Assembly: GCA_017550685.1 (NCBI GenBank)
Contig: JAFZOJ010000121.1
Coordinates: forward strand, 2,046 to 66,045
Direction of reading: 5' to 3'
DNA length: 64,000 nucleotides
From: Treponema sp.
GTDB lineage: Bacteria; Spirochaetota; Spirochaetia; Treponematales; Treponemataceae
The translations under genes and the position numbers were made by a program. The notes beneath the pieces are model-generated. The model saw only the letters and a program-made list of their open reading frames with translations, had not been told where the DNA came from and ran no database searches. Shown in pieces: positions 19,668-61,432 of this stretch; position 1 is the first letter of the stretch; each line of letters starts with the position of its first letter.

Positions 19668-19731
19668 GATTGTCGGGTCAAGCCCGACAATGACAAAACA
19701 ATCTGTCATTACCGGGCTTGACCCGGTAATC
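19668..19731. repeat. two family-1 hairpins in opposite orientation between convergent genes
   Basis: GATTGTCGGGTCAAGCCCGACAATGACA (19668..19695) and TGTCATTACCGGGCTTGACCCGGTAATC (19704..19731). Each touches the stop codon of the gene it follows. Confidence 0.9.
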
Positions 19732-20474
19732 TAAATCAAAGAATAAAGCAACCACAACATAAGCAGATGTAGAGGATAAAATACGTAGAAAAACCATTTG
19801 TGAAAAGGGGCTCGGGAACCGGGTTCGCCATTGTAAAGGTAAAGCACAGGCACAAATAAAAAGAGCCCCAGCTGCCATAATTCACTGTACCACTCTATTC
19901 CTTTGGCTGGAAGGAAAAGACAGCTTAATGCATTCATAAGAATTACAATCAGACAATAAACCAGCACAAGCCATAATGGTTTTTCCCTGAACTTATAAAA
20001 GCAGATAACCATGAGCGGACCAAAAAAGCCCCAGTCGCAGTAACAGGAAAGCGCAAACAGCACAAGTATTATAAAGAACTTGAAATATCCTTTAAGTTTG
20101 CAATCCAGCACACACAGAATGGCAAAACTAATAAGCAGAACAAAAAGCATGTTAAAATCTGGAGTGAGCAGACTGTTCTTATGAGCCAGTGCATAAGGAA
20201 TCTGGGAAATCACTGCAAAAATTGCAAGCCGCAACGCATATTTTTTCCTGGAACGGGTATAAATATATCCTTCTGTAAGGAAAAAACACATGATTGGAGC
20301 AGTCAGGCGGCCTAAAACCCTGAGAGTAACATAAAGCGCCATGCCCCAGGCTGAAGACATAAAAAAACCGCCAAAGAGCATCCCTATGTGGTCAAGGAGC
20401 ATGGCGGTTATTGCAATGTATTTTAGTTGTGTTCTGTTCAAACTATAACTGAACTCCAGTACGGATTTTTTCAT
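19731..20474 (-). CDS. TraX-family membrane protein
   Basis: ORF 19731..20567 trimmed to ATG 20474 (MKKSVLEFSYSLNRTQLKYIAITAMLLDHIGMLF, the TraX signature). Polytopic. Overlaps the thyX 3' end by 32 nt, and a TTG at 20440 is an alternative start. Confidence 0.7.
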   Translation of the reverse strand: MKKSVLEFSYSLNRTQLKYIAITAMLLDHIGMLFGGFFMSSAWGMALYVTLRVLGRLTAPIMCFFLTEGYIYTRSRKKYALRLAIFAVISQIPYALAHKNSLLTPDFNMLFVLLISFAILCVLDCKLKGYFKFFIILVLFALSCYCDWGFFGPLMVICFYKFREKPLWLVLVYCLIVILMNALSCLFLPAKGIEWYSELWQLGLFLFVPVLYLYNGEPGSRAPFHKWFFYVFYPLHLLMLWLLYSLI

Positions 20475-21279
20475 TAAAGCGGTCAAGCTTTTTGCCTTCA
20501 AGAGGGTTTGGCTTACCGTCCATAACGTCACGCAGTGCCTGCATTTCTTCTCCGCTGAAGGTAACACCGTGGTTCATGTGGTTGATAAAGCTTTCTGTAG
20601 CCATTGGGGCAACCTTACGGCACATTTCAAGAATAACTTCGGCATAAACGCGGATTTCGTACTGAGCGTGACTGTCCAGTCTGAGCTTTAAGAAGTGGAA
20701 GAGATTGTGCAAATCCATTTCCCAGTAGAATTCTGTATAAAGCGAAAGCGGCAGGTTAATGCGTGCAATTTCGCGAGCAAGACCTGAGTCAATAAGCTCG
20801 TTGTAGCTTTCGTATGCGGCCTTCTGTCCTTCTTCCAGCTGTGCTATGATTTTATCTGCAGTTTCTTTATCAAATGCTTCTGATGCGCGGCCCTGCTTGT
20901 TGTCTGTGCTCTGTGGAGAAACCTTGTCCTCTGCAGGAACATAGAATTCGTCCTTCATGATTGAATAACGGCCCGAAACTTCGTTCATGCGGCCTGTACG
21001 ATGGCGAACCCACTGGCGGGCAACAAAGATAGGCATTTTTACATGAAAGGTCATTACAACCTGTTCAAACGGAGATGTATGCTGATGGCGGAGCAGGTAA
21101 TCAATCAAAGCTCCATCCTGGCTCACGCTCTTTGTTCCTTCGCCATAAGAAACACGTGCAGACTGAACAATTCTCTGGTCTCCTCCAAAATAGTCAACCA
21201 GGCGGACAAAACCTTTATCGAGTACAGGATACTCCTTGTCCAAAATTTCTTCTGCAGCAGGAACAACGCAATGTGCCAT
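20443..21279 (-). CDS. thyX: FAD-dependent thymidylate synthase ThyX
   Basis: 278 aa with AGGAG Shine-Dalgarno. ThyX motif RHRTGRMNEVSGRY and typical flanking helices. Confidence 0.9.
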   Translation of the reverse strand: MAHCVVPAAEEILDKEYPVLDKGFVRLVDYFGGDQRIVQSARVSYGEGTKSVSQDGALIDYLLRHQHTSPFEQVVMTFHVKMPIFVARQWVRHRTGRMNEVSGRYSIMKDEFYVPAEDKVSPQSTDNKQGRASEAFDKETADKIIAQLEEGQKAAYESYNELIDSGLAREIARINLPLSLYTEFYWEMDLHNLFHFLKLRLDSHAQYEIRVYAEVILEMCRKVAPMATESFINHMNHGVTFSGEEMQALRDVMDGKPNPLEGKKLDRFNEKIRTGVQL

Positions 21280-21336
21280 ACAAATCTCCTATAAATGTGA
21301 TTGTTTTATAATAATGGAAATCAAGTTATAATTCAA

Positions 21337-21975
21337 TTACTCTTCTGGAGTATCGGTAGCAGCGGAGGTGCCTTCTTCTGCTTGGGCCTGCTGGTCCATT
21401 TTCTGGGTGATGTCCTGCTCGTTGCCTGATTCACCTGCAGTTCTTTTATTTACGATAATCTCAACTATAACCATAATCAGGCCAATCAAAAGGCCGCCGG
21501 CACCTACTACCTGAACAAAGGCTCGGCCAAAGGATTCAATCGGGATAATAATCAGAAGAACGCCGATTGCTACAAAAATCAGGGCTTCAAATATCAAACG
21601 GCGGCTTTCAATAGGAAAATTTGCTCTAAGCTTGGCAGAAGAATAAACGCTGACACCGGCATATAAAATCAGATAAACAGCAAGTACAATCGAAACTATT
21701 GTCCAGATTGCTGCTATAGTTTTTACCAGGACAAAAGGACAGATAACTGCAACAAGACCTATAACAAAGGTTATGATTCCTTTAATAAGAATAGTCTTTT
21801 TAAAAGCAGCATCTTCGCTCTGCTTATAGACAACAAGAAGGTTGTAAACCGAGAAAGCAACAGCTGCAGCACCGACAAGCACTACAACAGCCTTAATACA
21901 AGCATCAGGAATGGCAATCATAAGTATGCCAATCACAGCGAGAATTGCACCCAAAATAATATTCTTTGTCTTCAT
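21337..21975 (-). CDS. DUF308/HdeD-like integral membrane protein
   Basis: ORF trimmed to ATG 21975 (MKTKNIILGAILAVIGILMIAIP). Six predicted TM helices and an acidic C-terminal tail. Confidence 0.55.
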   Translation of the reverse strand: MKTKNIILGAILAVIGILMIAIPDACIKAVVVLVGAAAVAFSVYNLLVVYKQSEDAAFKKTILIKGIITFVIGLVAVICPFVLVKTIAAIWTIVSIVLAVYLILYAGVSVYSSAKLRANFPIESRRLIFEALIFVAIGVLLIIIPIESFGRAFVQVVGAGGLLIGLIMVIVEIIVNKRTAGESGNEQDITQKMDQQAQAEEGTSAATDTPEE

Positions 21976-59672: not shown

Positions 59673-61199
59673 TTATTTCAAACAAGACCTATCCAGCCTG
59701 TCAAATCCATCAGTCAATTTTTTGGCAATCTCAACCAGCTTAGCAAGGTCACCTTTGCGGCCGCCTTCTATGTTGAGTGGCATTACTGGATCGTGCAAAC
59801 TCAAGCGGAGGAGCAGCCAACCCTGAACATCCGGGCCCTTGAAGGAAAGGCGCACACCTTCATAAGACTGAGGCATTTCGTAACCGGCAGCGGCGGCTCG
59901 CTTTTTAAACTCATCAAGCACACCCTGTCCGTAGGCCTTAAAATCTTCACCGGCAATCTTAAAGCGGTACTCGCCTTCTTCTACCAGTGGAGGCAGCTTT
60001 TCAATCAAACTGTCCAGCTTTTTACCTGAGCTTGCTGCCTGTGCCAGAGCAATAACAAGCTTTACTGCAAGGAAGGCACCATCATCCAAAAAGTAATTAT
60101 CCTTGAGCGCACCGTGGCCGCTGGTTTCCATTGCAAGAGGAGCAACTTCACCGGCCGCATTCAATTCCTTCTGCTTATTGATAACATTCTTATAGCCGCG
60201 CATATAGCAAAGATGTTTAAGACCAAGAACATCCTGCAAAAAGTATGTAAGGCGGTCGCTGGTAACGCTGTCTGTGATGATTGTCGAACCCGGATATTCC
60301 GGCGCAAGAATAGCGGCAATCATTGCAATGATAGAGTCTCGGTTTACTTCACTTCCATCACTCAAAACTGCACTCATTCGGTCAACATCGGTATCAAAAA
60401 TCAAACCAAGGTCTGCCTTGTTGTTCAAAACTGTACTGCGGATTGCTTCCATGGCCTGTTTGTTTTCAGGGTTTGGAATATGATTAGGGAACATTCCGTC
60501 CGGCTCAAGGAACTGGCTGCCTGTAGTATCGGCTCCAAGCGGCTGCAAAATCTTGTCTACAAAGAAACCGCTGGCACCGTTACCGCTGTCTACTACGATG
60601 TGAAGTCCGCTCAAAGGCTTATCTCCCTTACCAAGGCCTGTAAGCGCAGCGGCAATTTTTTCACGCAGGTAATCACCATAAACGCCAATCAAATCAAAGG
60701 TCGGAACTGTCTTTACAAGGGCAGTATTTACCATATTTGCAACATAATCTTCGGGCAGCTTGGAAGCAATTTCCAGAACCGAAGTAATATCCTCGTGCTC
60801 AAGGCCGCCGTCTGCATCAAAAAACTTAATTCCGTTACGGTTATATGGAAGATGGCTTGCAGTAATCATTGCAGAACCATCATATTTTGTCTGATCAAAA
60901 ACAATGGACATGAACATTGCAGGGGTTGTAGCCATATTACAATTAACAACCTTGACTCCTGTACTCAAAATGCCTGCAATCAATCCGTCGGCAAGAGCTG
61001 GTCCGGAAACTCGTGAATCGCGTCCAACACCAATAACAAGGTCTCCCGCAGCCTTTTTCTTTTTTCCGCTAAGCCAGCTTACAAATGCACAGCCTATTTT
61101 AGAAGCAATCTCGGGGGTAAGGTTTACGTTTTCTCCTTCCACACCGGCAACTGCAACTCCACGCACATCACTTCCGTTCTGAAGCTTCATCAAATCCAT
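59673..61199 (-). CDS. phosphoglucomutase/phosphomannomutase (alpha-D-phosphohexomutase family)
   Basis: 508 aa, GGAGG Shine-Dalgarno. Active-site loop TASHLPYNRNGIKF, metal loop DTDVDR and sugar-binding loop ETSGH. Confidence 0.88.
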   Translation of the reverse strand: MDLMKLQNGSDVRGVAVAGVEGENVNLTPEIASKIGCAFVSWLSGKKKKAAGDLVIGVGRDSRVSGPALADGLIAGILSTGVKVVNCNMATTPAMFMSIVFDQTKYDGSAMITASHLPYNRNGIKFFDADGGLEHEDITSVLEIASKLPEDYVANMVNTALVKTVPTFDLIGVYGDYLREKIAAALTGLGKGDKPLSGLHIVVDSGNGASGFFVDKILQPLGADTTGSQFLEPDGMFPNHIPNPENKQAMEAIRSTVLNNKADLGLIFDTDVDRMSAVLSDGSEVNRDSIIAMIAAILAPEYPGSTIITDSVTSDRLTYFLQDVLGLKHLCYMRGYKNVINKQKELNAAGEVAPLAMETSGHGALKDNYFLDDGAFLAVKLVIALAQAASSGKKLDSLIEKLPPLVEEGEYRFKIAGEDFKAYGQGVLDEFKKRAAAAGYEMPQSYEGVRLSFKGPDVQGWLLLRLSLHDPVMPLNIEGGRKGDLAKLVEIAKKLTDGFDRLDRSCLK

Positions 61200-61307
61200 A
61201 TATTATTCCTCCAGTATTTGCAAATAACACTTCTATTATATTGCAGCATAAGGCTGGGGGCAAGCACAAAATAAGCAGCGGGCTATAGGGGATTTTACCT
61301 ATTATTA

Positions 61308-61336
61308 TTGAAATTAAAACAGTTGTAATCTATAAT
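61308..61336 (+). promoter_or_regulatory. sigma70-like promoter of the cellobiose phosphorylase gene
   Basis: TTGAAA-N17-TATAAT. The predicted start is about 61343. Confidence 0.6.
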
Positions 61337-61341
61337 GTTAG

Positions 61342-61432
61342 ATGCTGAATCAAGTTCAGCATGACAAAAAACGAATGCTGAAACAGCTCAGCATGACAAC
61401 AAATGAGATGCCGAACCAAGTTCGGCATGACA
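61342..61432 (+). repeat. three tandem family-1-type hairpins forming the 5' UTR of the cellobiose phosphorylase gene
   Basis: ATGCTGAA-TCAAG-TTCAGCAT-GACA (61342..61366). ATGCTGA-AACAGC-TCAGCAT-GACA (61375..61398). ATGCCGAA-CCAAG-TTCGGCAT-GACA (61408..61432). Confidence 0.85.

What the first reader, a model, noticed from the sequence alone, without database searches (positions are those of the whole stretch)
19668..61432. Family-1 hairpins keep the loop and flanks constant while stems covary: selection acts on a folded structure
The consensus is AT-[6-7 nt]-TCAAG-[complement]-AT-GACA, or its reverse complement TGTCAT...CTTGA...AT.

At least eight different, fully compensated stems occur:
- TGTCGGG/CCCGACA
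- TACCGGG/CCCGGTA
- TCCCGCG/CGCGGGA
- TGCCGGG/CCCGGCA
- TCCCGGG/CCCGGGA
- TCCGAA/TTCGGA
- GCTGAA/TTCAGC
- GCCGAA/TTCGGC

Loci are 19668, 19704, 31010, 31086, 32347, 53160, 53224, 56175, 56243, 56604, 57023, 57065, 59628, 61342, 61375 and 61408.

A conserved loop with compensatory stem changes is the signature of a structure recognised through its loop and flanks. The recogniser could act on RNA or on single-stranded DNA. Simple sequence homology from recent duplication would not produce this pattern.

Similar TGTCATTCC...GGAATC hairpins are, from memory, seen as spurious short ORFs in many phyla. I am not aware of an assigned function.
Basis: seen in the sequence. Interest (0 to 1): 0.65.

Follow-up and report, generated by a model that had tools for sequence, protein, structure and literature searches.

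The report
Hairpin repeats of a ssDNA nuclease
The covarying hairpins are real, but they belong to a repeat class already described (CGTC-tagged REPs, also called Ssn-related motifs). The small GIY-YIG nuclease gene that pairs with such repeats sits in this window, flanked by two of them, so this is a new instance of a known system.

Summary
**Observation:** confirmed. All 16 reported loci hold a 26-28 nt element: TGTC tag, 8-9 bp stem starting AT, 5-nt loop (usually CTTGA), tail CT.
- The loop+flank pattern gives 19 hits against 1.5 expected.
- In 10 distinct window copies every stem cell pairs, and 5 of 9 pairs change on both sides.
- A scan of 185,579 species genomes fixed only loop and flanks. 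Of 142 hits, 123 had perfectly complementary 6-nt variable stems, in about 45 versions and many phyla.

**Identity:** already described.
- Di Nocera et al. 2013 defined CGTC/TGTC-tagged REPs, which include Neisseria dRS3 and Rickettsia RPE-4/-6.
- Chenal et al. 2025 showed that such hairpins (NTS/SRM) are bound as single-stranded DNA by small GIY-YIG nucleases (Ssn). These cut a few nucleotides upstream, and their genes are typically flanked by the repeats.

**In this window:** a 95-aa GIY-YIG gene (56314-56601) is flanked by inverted hairpins. Homologues (44-78% identical) lie beside the same hairpins in loci from other phyla.

**Secondary findings:** tandem arrays of tag+5' arm+loop units upstream of full hairpins, with copy number varying between strains; indels at hairpin clusters; and T-tracts that make several copies terminator-like.

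**Verdict:** new member of a known kind; modest interest.

The parts
19668..19695 (-). Full hairpin, GT-type (TGTC ATTGTCGGG cttga CCCGACAAT C). Its tail overlaps the last A of the TAA stop of ORF 19146-19667(+).
19704..19731 (+). Full hairpin, AC-type. With 19668 it forms a tags-inward dimer that fills the spacer between two convergent genes. Its tail overlaps the stop codon of the TraX-like ORF 19731-20567(-).
   Evidence: The dimer folds as one long hairpin, -25.6 kcal/mol.
27933..27961 (-). Degenerate copy (tag, loop and one arm intact), followed by family-2 repeat units.
31010..31037 (-). Full hairpin, GT-type, 1 nt after the purC stop codon.
31033..31084 (+). Two tandem partial units of 26 nt (tag + 5' arm + loop + spacer CAACAACA). 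A sister strain has four.
31085..31112 (+). Full hairpin, CCCGCG-type, followed by T5. It shares tag and stem sequence with the Neisseria NTS and matches the published SRM pattern.
32347..32372 (+). 8-bp-stem copy (ATTCCGAA), loop CTCGT.
53160..53187 (-). Full hairpin, GT-type. Its tail AG is part of the TAG stop of prfA.
53193..53223 (.). Chimeric, degenerate unit tagged at both ends (TGTCATTACCAGG tcaag CCCCACAATGACA).
53224..53251 (+). Full hairpin, AC-type. The stretch 53170-53255 is missing in two sister strains.
56123..56174 (+). Two partial units of 26 nt (degenerate tag + 5' arm + loop + 8-nt spacer).
56175..56202 (+). Full hairpin, GC-type, followed by T8. It lies downstream of relA/spoT and is terminator-like.
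56217..56242 (+). Partial unit of 26 nt.
56243..56270 (+). Full hairpin, GC-type. It forms the left flank of the ssn-like gene, tag outward.
56314..56601 (+). 95-aa single-domain GIY-YIG nuclease gene, Ssn-like. Y7, Y18 and E65 correspond to the catalytic Y6, Y17 and E64 of Neisseria SsnA.
   Evidence: Pfam PF01541 5e-17; homologues and alignment; paper
56604..56631 (-). Full hairpin, GT-type, 2 nt after the ssn stop. It forms the right flank, tag outward.
56632..56751 (-). Five tandem partial units of 24 nt, progressively degenerate. A sister strain lacks four of them.
57023..57050 (+). Full hairpin, CC-type. It matches the SRM pattern and forms a tags-outward dimer with 57065.
57065..57092 (-). 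GT-type copy with one G.T pair and loop CTAGA. A sister strain has the perfect stem.
59627..59672 (+). CGTC-tagged hairpin (CGTC ATTGTCG ... CCCGACAAT C) with a family-2 repeat in place of its loop.
61341..61432 (-). Three head-to-tail short-stem copies (ATGCTGAA, ATGCTGAG, ATGCCGAAC) at 33-nt spacing, in a divergent intergenic region.

Best explanation
**What they are.** The hairpins are CGTC/TGTC-tagged repetitive extragenic palindromes. This is the class that includes Neisseria dRS3/NTS and is now called Ssn-related motifs.

**How they work.**
- They act as DNA, not RNA.
- When the TGTC-bearing strand is single-stranded (at a replication fork, or as incoming transforming or conjugating DNA), it folds into a 9-bp hairpin.
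- The small GIY-YIG nuclease encoded at 56314-56601 binds that hairpin through the unpaired tag, the first stem pairs and the base after the stem. It then nicks the strand a few nucleotides 5' of the tag.
- The gene sits between two inverted hairpins with tags outward, the IS-like 'repeat-ssn-repeat' cassette. The dispersed single and paired copies are its non-coding relatives, analogous to REPINs around a RAYT gene.
- Stem positions 4-9 are read mainly as structure, so they drift by compensated changes. The tag, the AT(T) start and the tail stay fixed.

**Secondary consequences in this genome.**
- Copies accumulate just after stop codons.
- Those followed by T-runs probably double as transcription terminators.
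- Hairpin clusters are hot spots for slippage and indels.

**Shown here.**
- The anatomy of the elements.
- The covariation.
- The gene-repeat architecture.
- The cross-phylum co-occurrence of gene and hairpin.
- The strain polymorphism at hairpin clusters.

**Inferred from published work on homologues.**
- ssDNA binding and cleavage by this particular protein.
- The position of the cut.

**Unknown.** How new copies arise, and what the system does for this bacterium.
For: 1. **Anatomy matches the published definition.** That definition is an unpaired CGTC or TGTC tag, an 8-9 bp stem starting with A-T/T-A, a 4-5 nt loop, a short tail, and frequent inverted dimers downstream of genes (PMC3733652). 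The window copies fit it.
2. **Close to the Neisseria NTS.** Copy 31085, TGTCATTCCCGCG-CTTGA-CGCGGGAATC, shares tag and stem with NTS, CGTCATTCCCGCG-MAV-GCGGGAATC.
3. **The gene.** Window gene 56314-56601 is a 95-aa single-domain GIY-YIG protein. The motif residues Y7, Y18 and E65 are invariant in the alignment. They correspond, with a one-residue offset, to the Y6, Y17 and E64 that were mutated in the 94-aa SsnA.
4. **The architecture.** The gene is flanked by hairpins with tags outward, at 56243(+) and 56604(-).
5. **Association starting from the hairpin alone.** Homologues 44-78% identical occur in 5 of 117 genome loci and 10 of 124 metagenome or viral loci that were fetched only for containing the hairpin. 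The 5 genome loci inspected all carry tagged hairpins within about 130 nt of the gene. About 0.2-0.3 per set would be expected for a single-copy gene.
6. **Structure constraint.** 123 of 142 perfect stems; covariation score 0.579 against 0.179, with 0 of 500 shuffles reaching it.
7. **No rival enzyme in view.** None of the 44 window ORFs scanned is a Y1 or IS110 transposase.
8. **Independent of transcription direction.** The strand-specific tag is conserved in both orientations relative to the upstream gene.
Against: - Direct homology of the window protein to Neisseria SsnA, or to cd10448, could not be tested, because no reference sequence was available.
- Only 2 of the 15 window copies fit the published degenerate SRM search pattern. 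The GT, AC and GC stems and the CT tail fall outside it.
- For Neisseria SsnA, changing the palindrome sequence while keeping the structure abolished activity. That sits uneasily with five stem variants sharing the one ssn gene seen here. Either this enzyme is more tolerant or paralogues exist elsewhere in the genome.
- No biochemical or transcript data exist for this organism.
- The Wolbachia copy found here is a pseudogene, so repeats can persist without an active enzyme.
Confidence: 0.8

Rival explanations
1. The hairpins are selected mainly as RNA elements. They would be Rho-independent terminators or 3' stabilisers of mRNA that happen to be repetitive, and covariation would reflect RNA folding.
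For: - Most copies lie within about 50 nt downstream of a gene. In the window four GT copies start 0-2 nt after a stop codon.
- The TGTC form is followed by T-runs at 31085, 56175, 56243 and 57023, and the consensus scan flags six copies as terminator-like.
- Single mismatches in other genomes are G.T on the TGTC strand 6 times, against 2 A.C (not significant).
- There are weak sub-threshold Rfam hits to two sRNA families on one dimer.
Against: - The five copies placed directly after stop codons are in the orientation whose transcript has no U-tract.
- The unpaired tag and tail are conserved although a terminator does not need them.
- In most other phyla the tail is CCA/CAG rather than a T-run.
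- The same hairpin flanks a ssDNA-nuclease gene across phyla.
- SsnA does not bind the RNA form.
- The genome has ordinary terminators of unrelated sequence: 7600, 32280, 50987, 63939.
Confidence: 0.1
2. They are REPINs mobilised by a REP-associated tyrosine transposase (RAYT, IS200/IS605 Y1 family) encoded elsewhere in the genome.
For: - The general resemblance is close: a tagged palindrome, inverted dimers that fold into one long hairpin, an extragenic location, and strain-variable clusters.
Against: - The tag is TGTC/CGTC, not GTAG.
- Di Nocera et al. found no RAYT flanked by CGTC repeats in any genome.
- No PF01797 protein occurs among the 44 window ORFs.
- The gene actually flanked by the repeats is a GIY-YIG nuclease.
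Confidence: 0.03
3. They are functionless palindromic debris. The perfect arms would be kept by a mechanical process, namely template switching that corrects quasi-palindromes during replication, rather than by selection or recognition. The adjacent nuclease gene would be a passenger.
For: - Arms are perfect far more often than one mutation away (123 perfect against 11 with one mismatch), as templated correction predicts.
- Hairpin clusters are slippage-prone: copy numbers vary and indels end in the loop.
- A pseudogenised nuclease sits beside intact hairpins in Wolbachia.
Against: - Templated correction does not explain why an unpaired 4-nt tag, the AT start, the loop and the tail are the same in phyla as distant as Spirochaetota, Nitrospirota, Planctomycetota and Alphaproteobacteria.
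- It also does not explain the repeated co-location with one protein family.
Confidence: 0.07

Closest known systems
CGTC-tagged REPs, 9-bp-stem/5-nt-loop families (CGTC-3/-4), Di Nocera, De Gregorio & Rocco 2013 (PMC3733652)
   Same: - Unpaired CGTC or TGTC tag at one end.
- 8-9 bp stem starting with A-T, T-A.
- 4-5 nt loop and a short unpaired tail.
- Inverted dimers, often heterodimers.
- Extragenic, mostly downstream of genes.
- Reported in Spirochaetes among five phyla.
- No associated tyrosine transposase.
   Different: - The tail here is CT(T), not CCA.
- Tags-inward dimers, rare in the paper, make up three of the four dimers in the window.
- Tandem arrays of 5' halves are not mentioned in the paper.
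- The figure with the family consensus sequences could not be read, so assignment to CGTC-3 or CGTC-4 rests on stem and loop lengths only.
NTS / Ssn-related motifs with the Ssn GIY-YIG ssDNA nucleases (cd10448), Chenal et al. 2025 (PMC11893778)
   Same: - Same tag and stem start (CGTC/TGTC-ATTCCCGCG...).
- A single-domain GIY-YIG gene of about 95 aa, flanked on both sides by the hairpins.
- Catalytic Tyr, Tyr and Glu at equivalent positions.
- The association holds across phyla.
   Different: - The loop is 5 nt (CTTGA) on a 9-bp stem, against 4 nt on 8 bp in NTS.
- Most window copies fall outside the published SRM search pattern.
- The host is an uncultured gut bacterium.
- Enzyme activity is untested here, and no link to natural transformation is known.
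Neisseria dRS3 / NIME arrays; Rickettsia RPE-4 and RPE-6; Wolbachia CGTC-4 repeats
   Same: - Di Nocera et al. place these in the same CGTC superfamily.
- They lie next to strain-variable regions, as here beside the 9-kb insert at purC.
   Different: - Neisseria arrays alternate dRS3 with 50-150 bp RS units.
- Some RPEs sit in frame inside genes.
- Here the arrays are 24-26 nt half-hairpin units, and no intragenic copy of this family was seen.
GTAG-tagged REP/REPIN with RAYT
   Same: - It works in a similar way: a tagged ssDNA hairpin recognised by a single-copy nuclease whose gene is flanked by the repeats.
- Inverted doublets are the usual unit.
   Different: - The tag is different.
- The enzyme superfamily is different (HUH Y1 transposase against GIY-YIG).
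- Membership features were tested and not met.
Intrinsic (Rho-independent) terminators
   Same: Several copies are a GC-rich hairpin followed by a T-run at the 3' end of a gene.
   Different: - A conserved unpaired tag.
- Use of both orientations.
- Sequence identity across phyla.

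Membership tests
CGTC-tagged REP superfamily (Di Nocera 2013) | Unpaired CGTC (or TGTC) motif at one end of the palindrome | tested here: met
   TGTC in 15 copies and CGTC at 59627. It is never part of the stem.
CGTC-tagged REP superfamily (Di Nocera 2013) | Stem of 8-9 bp with complementary A-T, T-A in first and second positions; loop of 4-5 nt | tested here: met
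   Eleven copies have a 9-bp stem and 5-nt loop. Four have 8-9 bp stems with 3-5 nt loops. All start with AT.
CGTC-tagged REP superfamily (Di Nocera 2013) | Short unpaired tail, consensus CCA | tested here: inconclusive
   The window tail is C+T(T). Copies of the same hairpin in other phyla have C+CA(G/T). The first C is shared.
CGTC-tagged REP superfamily (Di Nocera 2013) | Multi-copy, extragenic, mostly downstream of ORFs, frequently in inverted dimers | tested here: met
   15 full copies and about 10 partial units in 64 kb, all intergenic, with four dimers.
SRM-Ssn system (Chenal 2025) | Repeat fits the SRM search pattern HGTCWYN(0-2)YYVSBRHN(0-5)WNVSBRGN(0-2)RNCYNB | tested here: inconclusive
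   2 of 15 copies fit (31085, 57023), against 0.17 in shuffles. The others differ only at stem positions 4-5 and their partners.
SRM-Ssn system (Chenal 2025) | Single-domain GIY-YIG protein under 150 aa with the catalytic Tyr, Tyr and Glu | tested here: met
   95 aa; PF01541 covers residues 1-72 of the 95 (39-110 of the 130-aa ORF scanned). Y7, Y18, R28, E65 and N84 are invariant in 9 homologues. Nm SsnA is 94 aa with Y6, Y17 and E64.
SRM-Ssn system (Chenal 2025) | Gene flanked by the repeats on both sides (NTS-ssnA-NTS) | tested here: met
   56243(+) and 56604(-), tags outward. The same holds in L047, L093 and L065.
SRM-Ssn system (Chenal 2025) | Homology to N. meningitidis SsnA (E below 1e-10) or assignment to CDD cd10448 | not tested
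   No SsnA sequence and no CDD library were available. NCBIfam has no specific model. The nearest PDB chains are only remote GIY-YIG domains.
SRM-Ssn system (Chenal 2025) | Strand-specific binding of the hairpin as ssDNA and cleavage a few nucleotides upstream; no action on dsDNA or RNA | not testable with these tools
   Needs purified protein and oligonucleotides.
REPIN/RAYT | GTAG-type tag, and a Y1 (PF01797) transposase gene flanked by the repeats | tested here: not met
   The tag is TGTC. There is no PF01797 hit in 44 window ORFs. The rest of the genome was not seen.
Rfam RNA families | Match to a curated covariance model at its gathering score | tested here: not met
   Only tRNA-Asn and SRP RNA pass the threshold. 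On the hairpins the best hits are 20-27 bits against thresholds of 65-66.
Intrinsic terminators | GC-rich hairpin immediately followed by a U-tract on the transcript of the upstream gene | tested here: inconclusive
   Met by 31085, 56175 and 56243, and possibly 57023. Not met by the copies placed right after stop codons in the opposite orientation. No 3'-end data.

The most novel reading that the evidence does not exclude
The half-hairpin arrays and loop-bounded rearrangements may be footprints of the still-unknown way Ssn-associated hairpins are made and reshuffled.

**The observations**
- Units of tag + 5' arm + loop + a 6-8 nt spacer (24-26 nt) are repeated head to tail only on the 5' side of a complete hairpin.
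- This holds in 18 of 253 hairpins. The mirror-image case, a 3' half lying downstream, occurs in 2.
- Copy number changes between strains.
- An 86-nt strain indel begins in a hairpin loop.

**A possible reading**
- Such a pattern could arise if synthesis stalls or the strand is nicked at the folded hairpin and re-primes a fixed distance upstream.
- Chenal et al. showed that a 'first half' is cut when any 'second half' pairs with it. An array of first halves sharing one second half would therefore be a natural multi-site substrate.
Probability: 0.2. Interest if true: 0.55.

Novelty: new member of a known kind. Interest (0 to 1): 0.3.

Why it matters
**For genome annotation**
- These hairpins should be labelled as CGTC-tagged REP / Ssn-related motifs, not called as short ORFs. 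Translated, they give the recurrent 'VIAGLDPAI / RVKPGND' peptides.
- The 95-aa GIY-YIG gene should be named an Ssn-like ssDNA endonuclease.

**For the Ssn field**
- The window extends the repeat-nuclease pairing to an uncultured ruminant-gut bacterium.
- The 9-bp/CTTGA subfamily is spread over many phyla. Its stems lie outside the published search pattern, so published counts of such motifs are probably underestimates.
- The strain comparisons show hairpin clusters acting as indel and rearrangement hot spots, which is relevant to how these elements shape genomes.

None of this changes the basic picture already in the literature.

Tried and rejected
- **Rfam.** The gathering-threshold scan of the window found only tRNA-Asn and SRP RNA. 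A permissive scan of 56000-57200 gave only far sub-threshold hits.
- **RAYT or another transposase as mobiliser.** Pfam on 44 ORFs found none. The only 'transposase-like' hit is a PD-(D/E)XK_2 (Rpn-like) ORF at 51162-52004, which is not next to hairpins.
- **Blind neighbour-gene enrichment.** An all-against-all BLAST of ORFs around hairpins put ordinary families on top. The GIY-YIG cluster was there (4 loci) but I overlooked it until the literature pointed to it. The targeted tblastn then confirmed it.
- **Sequence-string literature search.** This returned only primer noise.
- **RNA evidence.** Public RNA runs hold at most 6% of the words of a window gene and are kept only as contigs, so transcript ends could not be mapped.
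- **Laying metagenome contigs on 52-60 kb.** Depth rises 10- to 30-fold in the hairpin bins, because hairpins from many other loci and organisms pile up there. The 'joints' are other dimers, so this gave nothing on mobility at this locus.
- **Strand bias relative to replication.** GC skew is negative across the whole window. Copies are about equally split between strands because most sit in inverted pairs, so the result is uninformative.
- **Taxonomy of the window.** Not resolved. The source is ruminant or gut metagenomes. The nearest hairpin arrays are in Treponema MAGs. A T9SS CHU_C domain protein points elsewhere.
- **PDB and NCBIfam.** They gave no specific relative for the nuclease.

Full report
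**1. What is in the sequence**

In its tagged orientation it reads:
- TGTC, the unpaired tag
- AT(T)+N5-6, the 5' arm
- a 5-nt loop
- the complementary arm
- C-T(T), the tail

Eleven copies have a 9-bp stem and the loop CTTGA (CTAGA at 57065). Four have 8-9 bp stems beginning ATTC or ATGC, with loops CTCGT, CTTGA, CTGT and (C)TTG(G). A sixteenth copy, at 59627-59672, has a CGTC tag and a different repeat in place of its loop.

The family is far above chance:
- The loop+flank pattern gives 19 hits against 1.5 expected.
- A generic 'GTC + hairpin' search gives 20 hits against 3.6 +/- 2.0.
- 16 of the window's 44 perfect hairpins with stems of at least 7 bp belong to it.
- As ssDNA a single copy folds at -9.6 to -10.9 kcal/mol (z about -5). 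Inverted pairs can fold into one long hairpin of -23 to -26 kcal/mol.

**2. Covariation**

Within the window, the ten distinct sequences pair in 100% of cells. Five of nine pairs change on both sides. The covariation score is 0.565 against 0.215 in shuffles (0 of 500), and slid controls pair in 17-49% of cells.

Many window copies are identical to one another: five GT-type, two AC-type and two GC-type. The window alone therefore could not exclude 'a few clonal subfamilies'.

The decisive test was a scan of one genome for each of 185,579 species with only loop and flanks fixed (TGTCATT-N6-CTTGA-N6-AATC).
- These came from Spirochaetota (many Treponema), Nitrospirota, Alphaproteobacteria (Bradyrhizobium, Inquilinus, Wolbachia, Rickettsiales), Desulfovibrionaceae, Patescibacteria, Chloroflexota, Planctomycetota, Fibrobacter, Lachnospiraceae and others.
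- Of 142 hits, 123 have fully complementary 6-nt variable stems, in about 45 different versions.
- On the 50 distinct sequences, all six free pairs show double-sided changes. 94.7% of cells pair, against 72% in shuffles. The covariation score is 0.579 against 0.179 (0 of 500).

In the converse scan the commonest stem was fixed and the loop left free. The loop was CTTGA in 96 of 129 copies, and most of the rest differ from it by a single base. The loop is therefore conserved but not invariant.

Outside the pattern, the only further conservation is the tail: C-A-(G/T) in most phyla, and T-rich in the window and its gut relatives.

**3. What it is**

Two papers describe this class.
- **Di Nocera, De Gregorio and Rocco 2013 (PMC3733652).** They sorted prokaryotic REPs into GTAG- and CGTC-tagged superfamilies.
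  - They occur in five phyla, including Spirochaetes.
  - They form inverted dimers, often heterodimers.
  - They include Neisseria dRS3 and Rickettsia RPE-4/-6.
  - They 'apparently lack a dedicated transposase'.
- **Chenal et al. 2025 (PMC11893778).** They found the partner.
  - Small single-domain GIY-YIG proteins (Ssn family, cd10448) bind the 28-nt NTS hairpin CGTCATTCCCGCGMAVGCGGGAATCYRG.
  - Binding occurs only as ssDNA and only on that strand. The enzyme cuts a few nucleotides upstream.
  - RNA and dsDNA are not touched.
  - The bases just upstream of the palindrome and the C after it matter most. Loop identity does not.
  - 71% of ssn homologues have such motifs nearby, and 42% have them on both sides.

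The window fits both descriptions.
- Copy 31085 (TGTCATTCCCGCG-CTTGA-CGCGGGAATC) has the NTS tag and stem.
- Inside the finding's coordinates lies a 95-aa GIY-YIG gene (56314-56601; PF01541, 5e-17). Hairpins flank it at 56243(+) and 56604(-), tags outward.
- Its Y7, Y18 and E65 line up, with a one-residue offset, with the Y6, Y17 and E64 mutated in the 94-aa Neisseria enzyme.

Starting only from the hairpin, homologues of this protein turn up repeatedly.
- They occur in 5 of 117 genome loci (Rhodopseudomonas, a Pseudomonadota MAG, Phycisphaerae, Wolbachia, an alphaproteobacterium).
- They also occur in 10 of 124 metagenome or viral loci. Identity over both sets is 44-78%.
- The five genome loci were inspected, and all carry tagged hairpins within about 130 nt of the gene. 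The other ten were found by tblastn only.
- For a single-copy gene, a fraction of one hit per set would be expected.

No Y1 or IS110 transposase is present among the 44 window ORFs scanned.

**4. How it most likely works**

- *Shown:* the element's anatomy, the structural constraint, the repeat-gene-repeat cassette and the cross-phylum coupling.
- *Inferred from the characterised homologues:* the encoded protein recognises the folded TGTC strand when it is single-stranded and nicks 5' of the tag. Stem positions beyond the first three pairs are read mainly as structure, which allows compensated drift.
- *Unknown:* how copies multiply, and what the host gains. In Neisseria the system trims incoming transforming DNA.

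One tension remains. For Neisseria SsnA, a structure-preserving change of the palindrome abolished activity. Here five stem variants coexist with the one gene in view. Only 2 of the 15 copies fit the published degenerate search pattern.

Direct homology to SsnA or cd10448 could not be tested with the tools at hand.

**5. Rivals**

- **RNA terminator or stabiliser role.** This is plausible as a secondary use.
  - Four copies carry T-runs, and six are flagged as terminator-like.
  - Copies cluster just after stop codons.
  - It does not explain the conserved unpaired tag, the copies in the non-terminator orientation right after stop codons, the CCA-type tail in other phyla, or the nuclease association.
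- **RAYT-mobilised REPINs.** The defining features (GTAG tag, flanked Y1 gene) were tested and not met.
- **Templated correction of quasi-palindromes.** This could help keep the arms perfect (123 perfect copies against 11 with one mismatch). It cannot account for the conserved unpaired parts.

**6. Things beyond the original finding**

(a) *Half-hairpin arrays.*
- Units of tag + 5' arm + loop + a 6-8 nt spacer (24-26 nt) are repeated in tandem immediately upstream of a complete hairpin. They occur at 31033, 56123, 56217 and 56632-56751.
- The same arrays occur in Treponema MAG loci L073 and L074.
- In other loci, single 5'-half copies lie 23-74 nt upstream of a full hairpin: Lachnospiraceae, Desulfovibrionaceae, Spirochaetales and alphaproteobacterial loci.
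- The asymmetry is strong in the first set: a 5' half lies upstream in 15 of 135 hairpins, and a 3' half lies downstream in 1. In the mostly soil-derived second set the counts are 3 and 1 of 118, so the arrays are lineage-biased.
- Neither paper mentions them.

(b) *Strain polymorphism.* Contigs of sister strains with identical proteins differ at the hairpin clusters.
- 42 nt and 4 x 24 nt are missing beside ssn.
- There are four rather than two 26-nt units after purC.
- An 86-nt stretch (53170-53255) is absent between prfA and prmC, leaving one arm plus a loop-like remnant.
- A segment of about 9 kb (31113-40185: sugar ABC transporter, two-component system, binding protein) is present between purC and purB in the window. 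It is absent in four other contigs, where a single GT hairpin in the opposite orientation sits between the convergent genes.

(c) *A second repeat family.* GGGGTCCCTGAGGCTCTCGAAGGGCCCC also has 5'-partial tandem units. One copy is nested in the loop of a family-1 hairpin.

**7. Verdict**

The element is a member of a repeat class described in 2013 whose protein partner was identified in 2025, and the partner gene is in the window.

It is a new member of a known kind, with a variant tail, stems outside the published motif and a new host lineage. The half-hairpin arrays and loop-bounded indels are the only parts that might add something new.

Noticed in passing
window 31033-31084, 56123-56174, 56217-56242, 56632-56751; L074 2786-2909; L073 999-1050: Tandem arrays of partial units (tag + 5' arm + loop + 6-8 nt spacer, period 24-26 nt) lie only on the 5' side of a complete hairpin. 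5' halves lie upstream in 18 of 253 hairpins, against 2 for 3' halves downstream. Copy number differs between strains. Not mentioned in the two papers on this repeat class.
   Followed up: partly
window 5691, 5952, 8212, 12675, 14828, 17832, 27983, 54238, 57098, 59597, 59637: A second dispersed repeat family, GGGGTCCCTGAGGCTCTCGAAGGGCCCC (imperfect palindrome), has at least 10 copies. It also has 5'-partial tandem units (54177-54264, period 21; 27964-28009). Two copies lie inside ORF 5171-7369(-). It was not identified with any known family.
   Followed up: no
window 59597-59676: A family-2 repeat sits exactly where the loop of a CGTC-tagged family-1 hairpin should be (CGTCATTGTCG-[family 2]-CCCGACAATC). 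Another family-2 copy lies in inverted orientation just upstream. This is a nested or composite repeat.
   Followed up: partly
window 31113-40185 versus L253-L256: A segment of about 9 kb (sugar ABC transporter, AraC-type response regulator + histidine kinase, periplasmic binding protein) lies between purC and purB here. It is absent in four sister-strain contigs, where purC and purB are convergent and 80 nt apart. The purC-side junction is the hairpin cluster, and the GT hairpin has the opposite orientation in the two forms.
   Followed up: partly
window 53170-53255 versus L248, L250: An 86-nt indel between prfA and prmC, in strains with an identical RF1 protein. The short form keeps AGATTGTCGGG+ACAAG, which is one arm plus a loop-like remnant. 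The break therefore lies at the loop. The direction (deletion or insertion) is undetermined.
   Followed up: partly
window 51162-52004: A PD-(D/E)XK_2 'nuclease family transposase' ORF (Rpn-like, PF12784, 4.6e-9). It is absent at this position in sister-strain contigs L247 and L248.
   Followed up: no
window 44000-52000: A low-GC stretch (0.375-0.386, against 0.42-0.48 elsewhere). It holds three large ORFs (45709-47346, 47375-48976, 48994-50943) with no Pfam match. It may be an acquired island.
   Followed up: no
window 29566-29639 and 29692-29765: A 74-nt direct repeat (88% identical) in the region upstream of the MFS transporter gene 28136-29575(-).
   Followed up: no
window 57000-57106: Sub-threshold Rfam hits on the hairpin dimer: Francisella sRNA FtrB (27 bits, threshold 66) and Wolbachia sRNA WsnRNA46 (20 bits, threshold 65). 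These published sRNAs may themselves contain repeats of this class.
   Followed up: no
L084 184-453 (Wolbachia wCori), L123 (IMG/VR contig): The Wolbachia ssn-like copy beside intact hairpins has an in-frame stop, so it is a pseudogene. One 'viral' contig carries two ssn-like genes.
   Followed up: no
window 23430-23525(-), 7525-7599(+): Bacterial small SRP RNA and tRNA-Asn(GTT). These are the only Rfam or ARAGORN hits in the window.
   Followed up: yes
L205 about 2750-2870: The open reading frame upstream of an ssn-like gene reads through a hairpin as '...CVIAGLDPAIQ...'.
   Followed up: no
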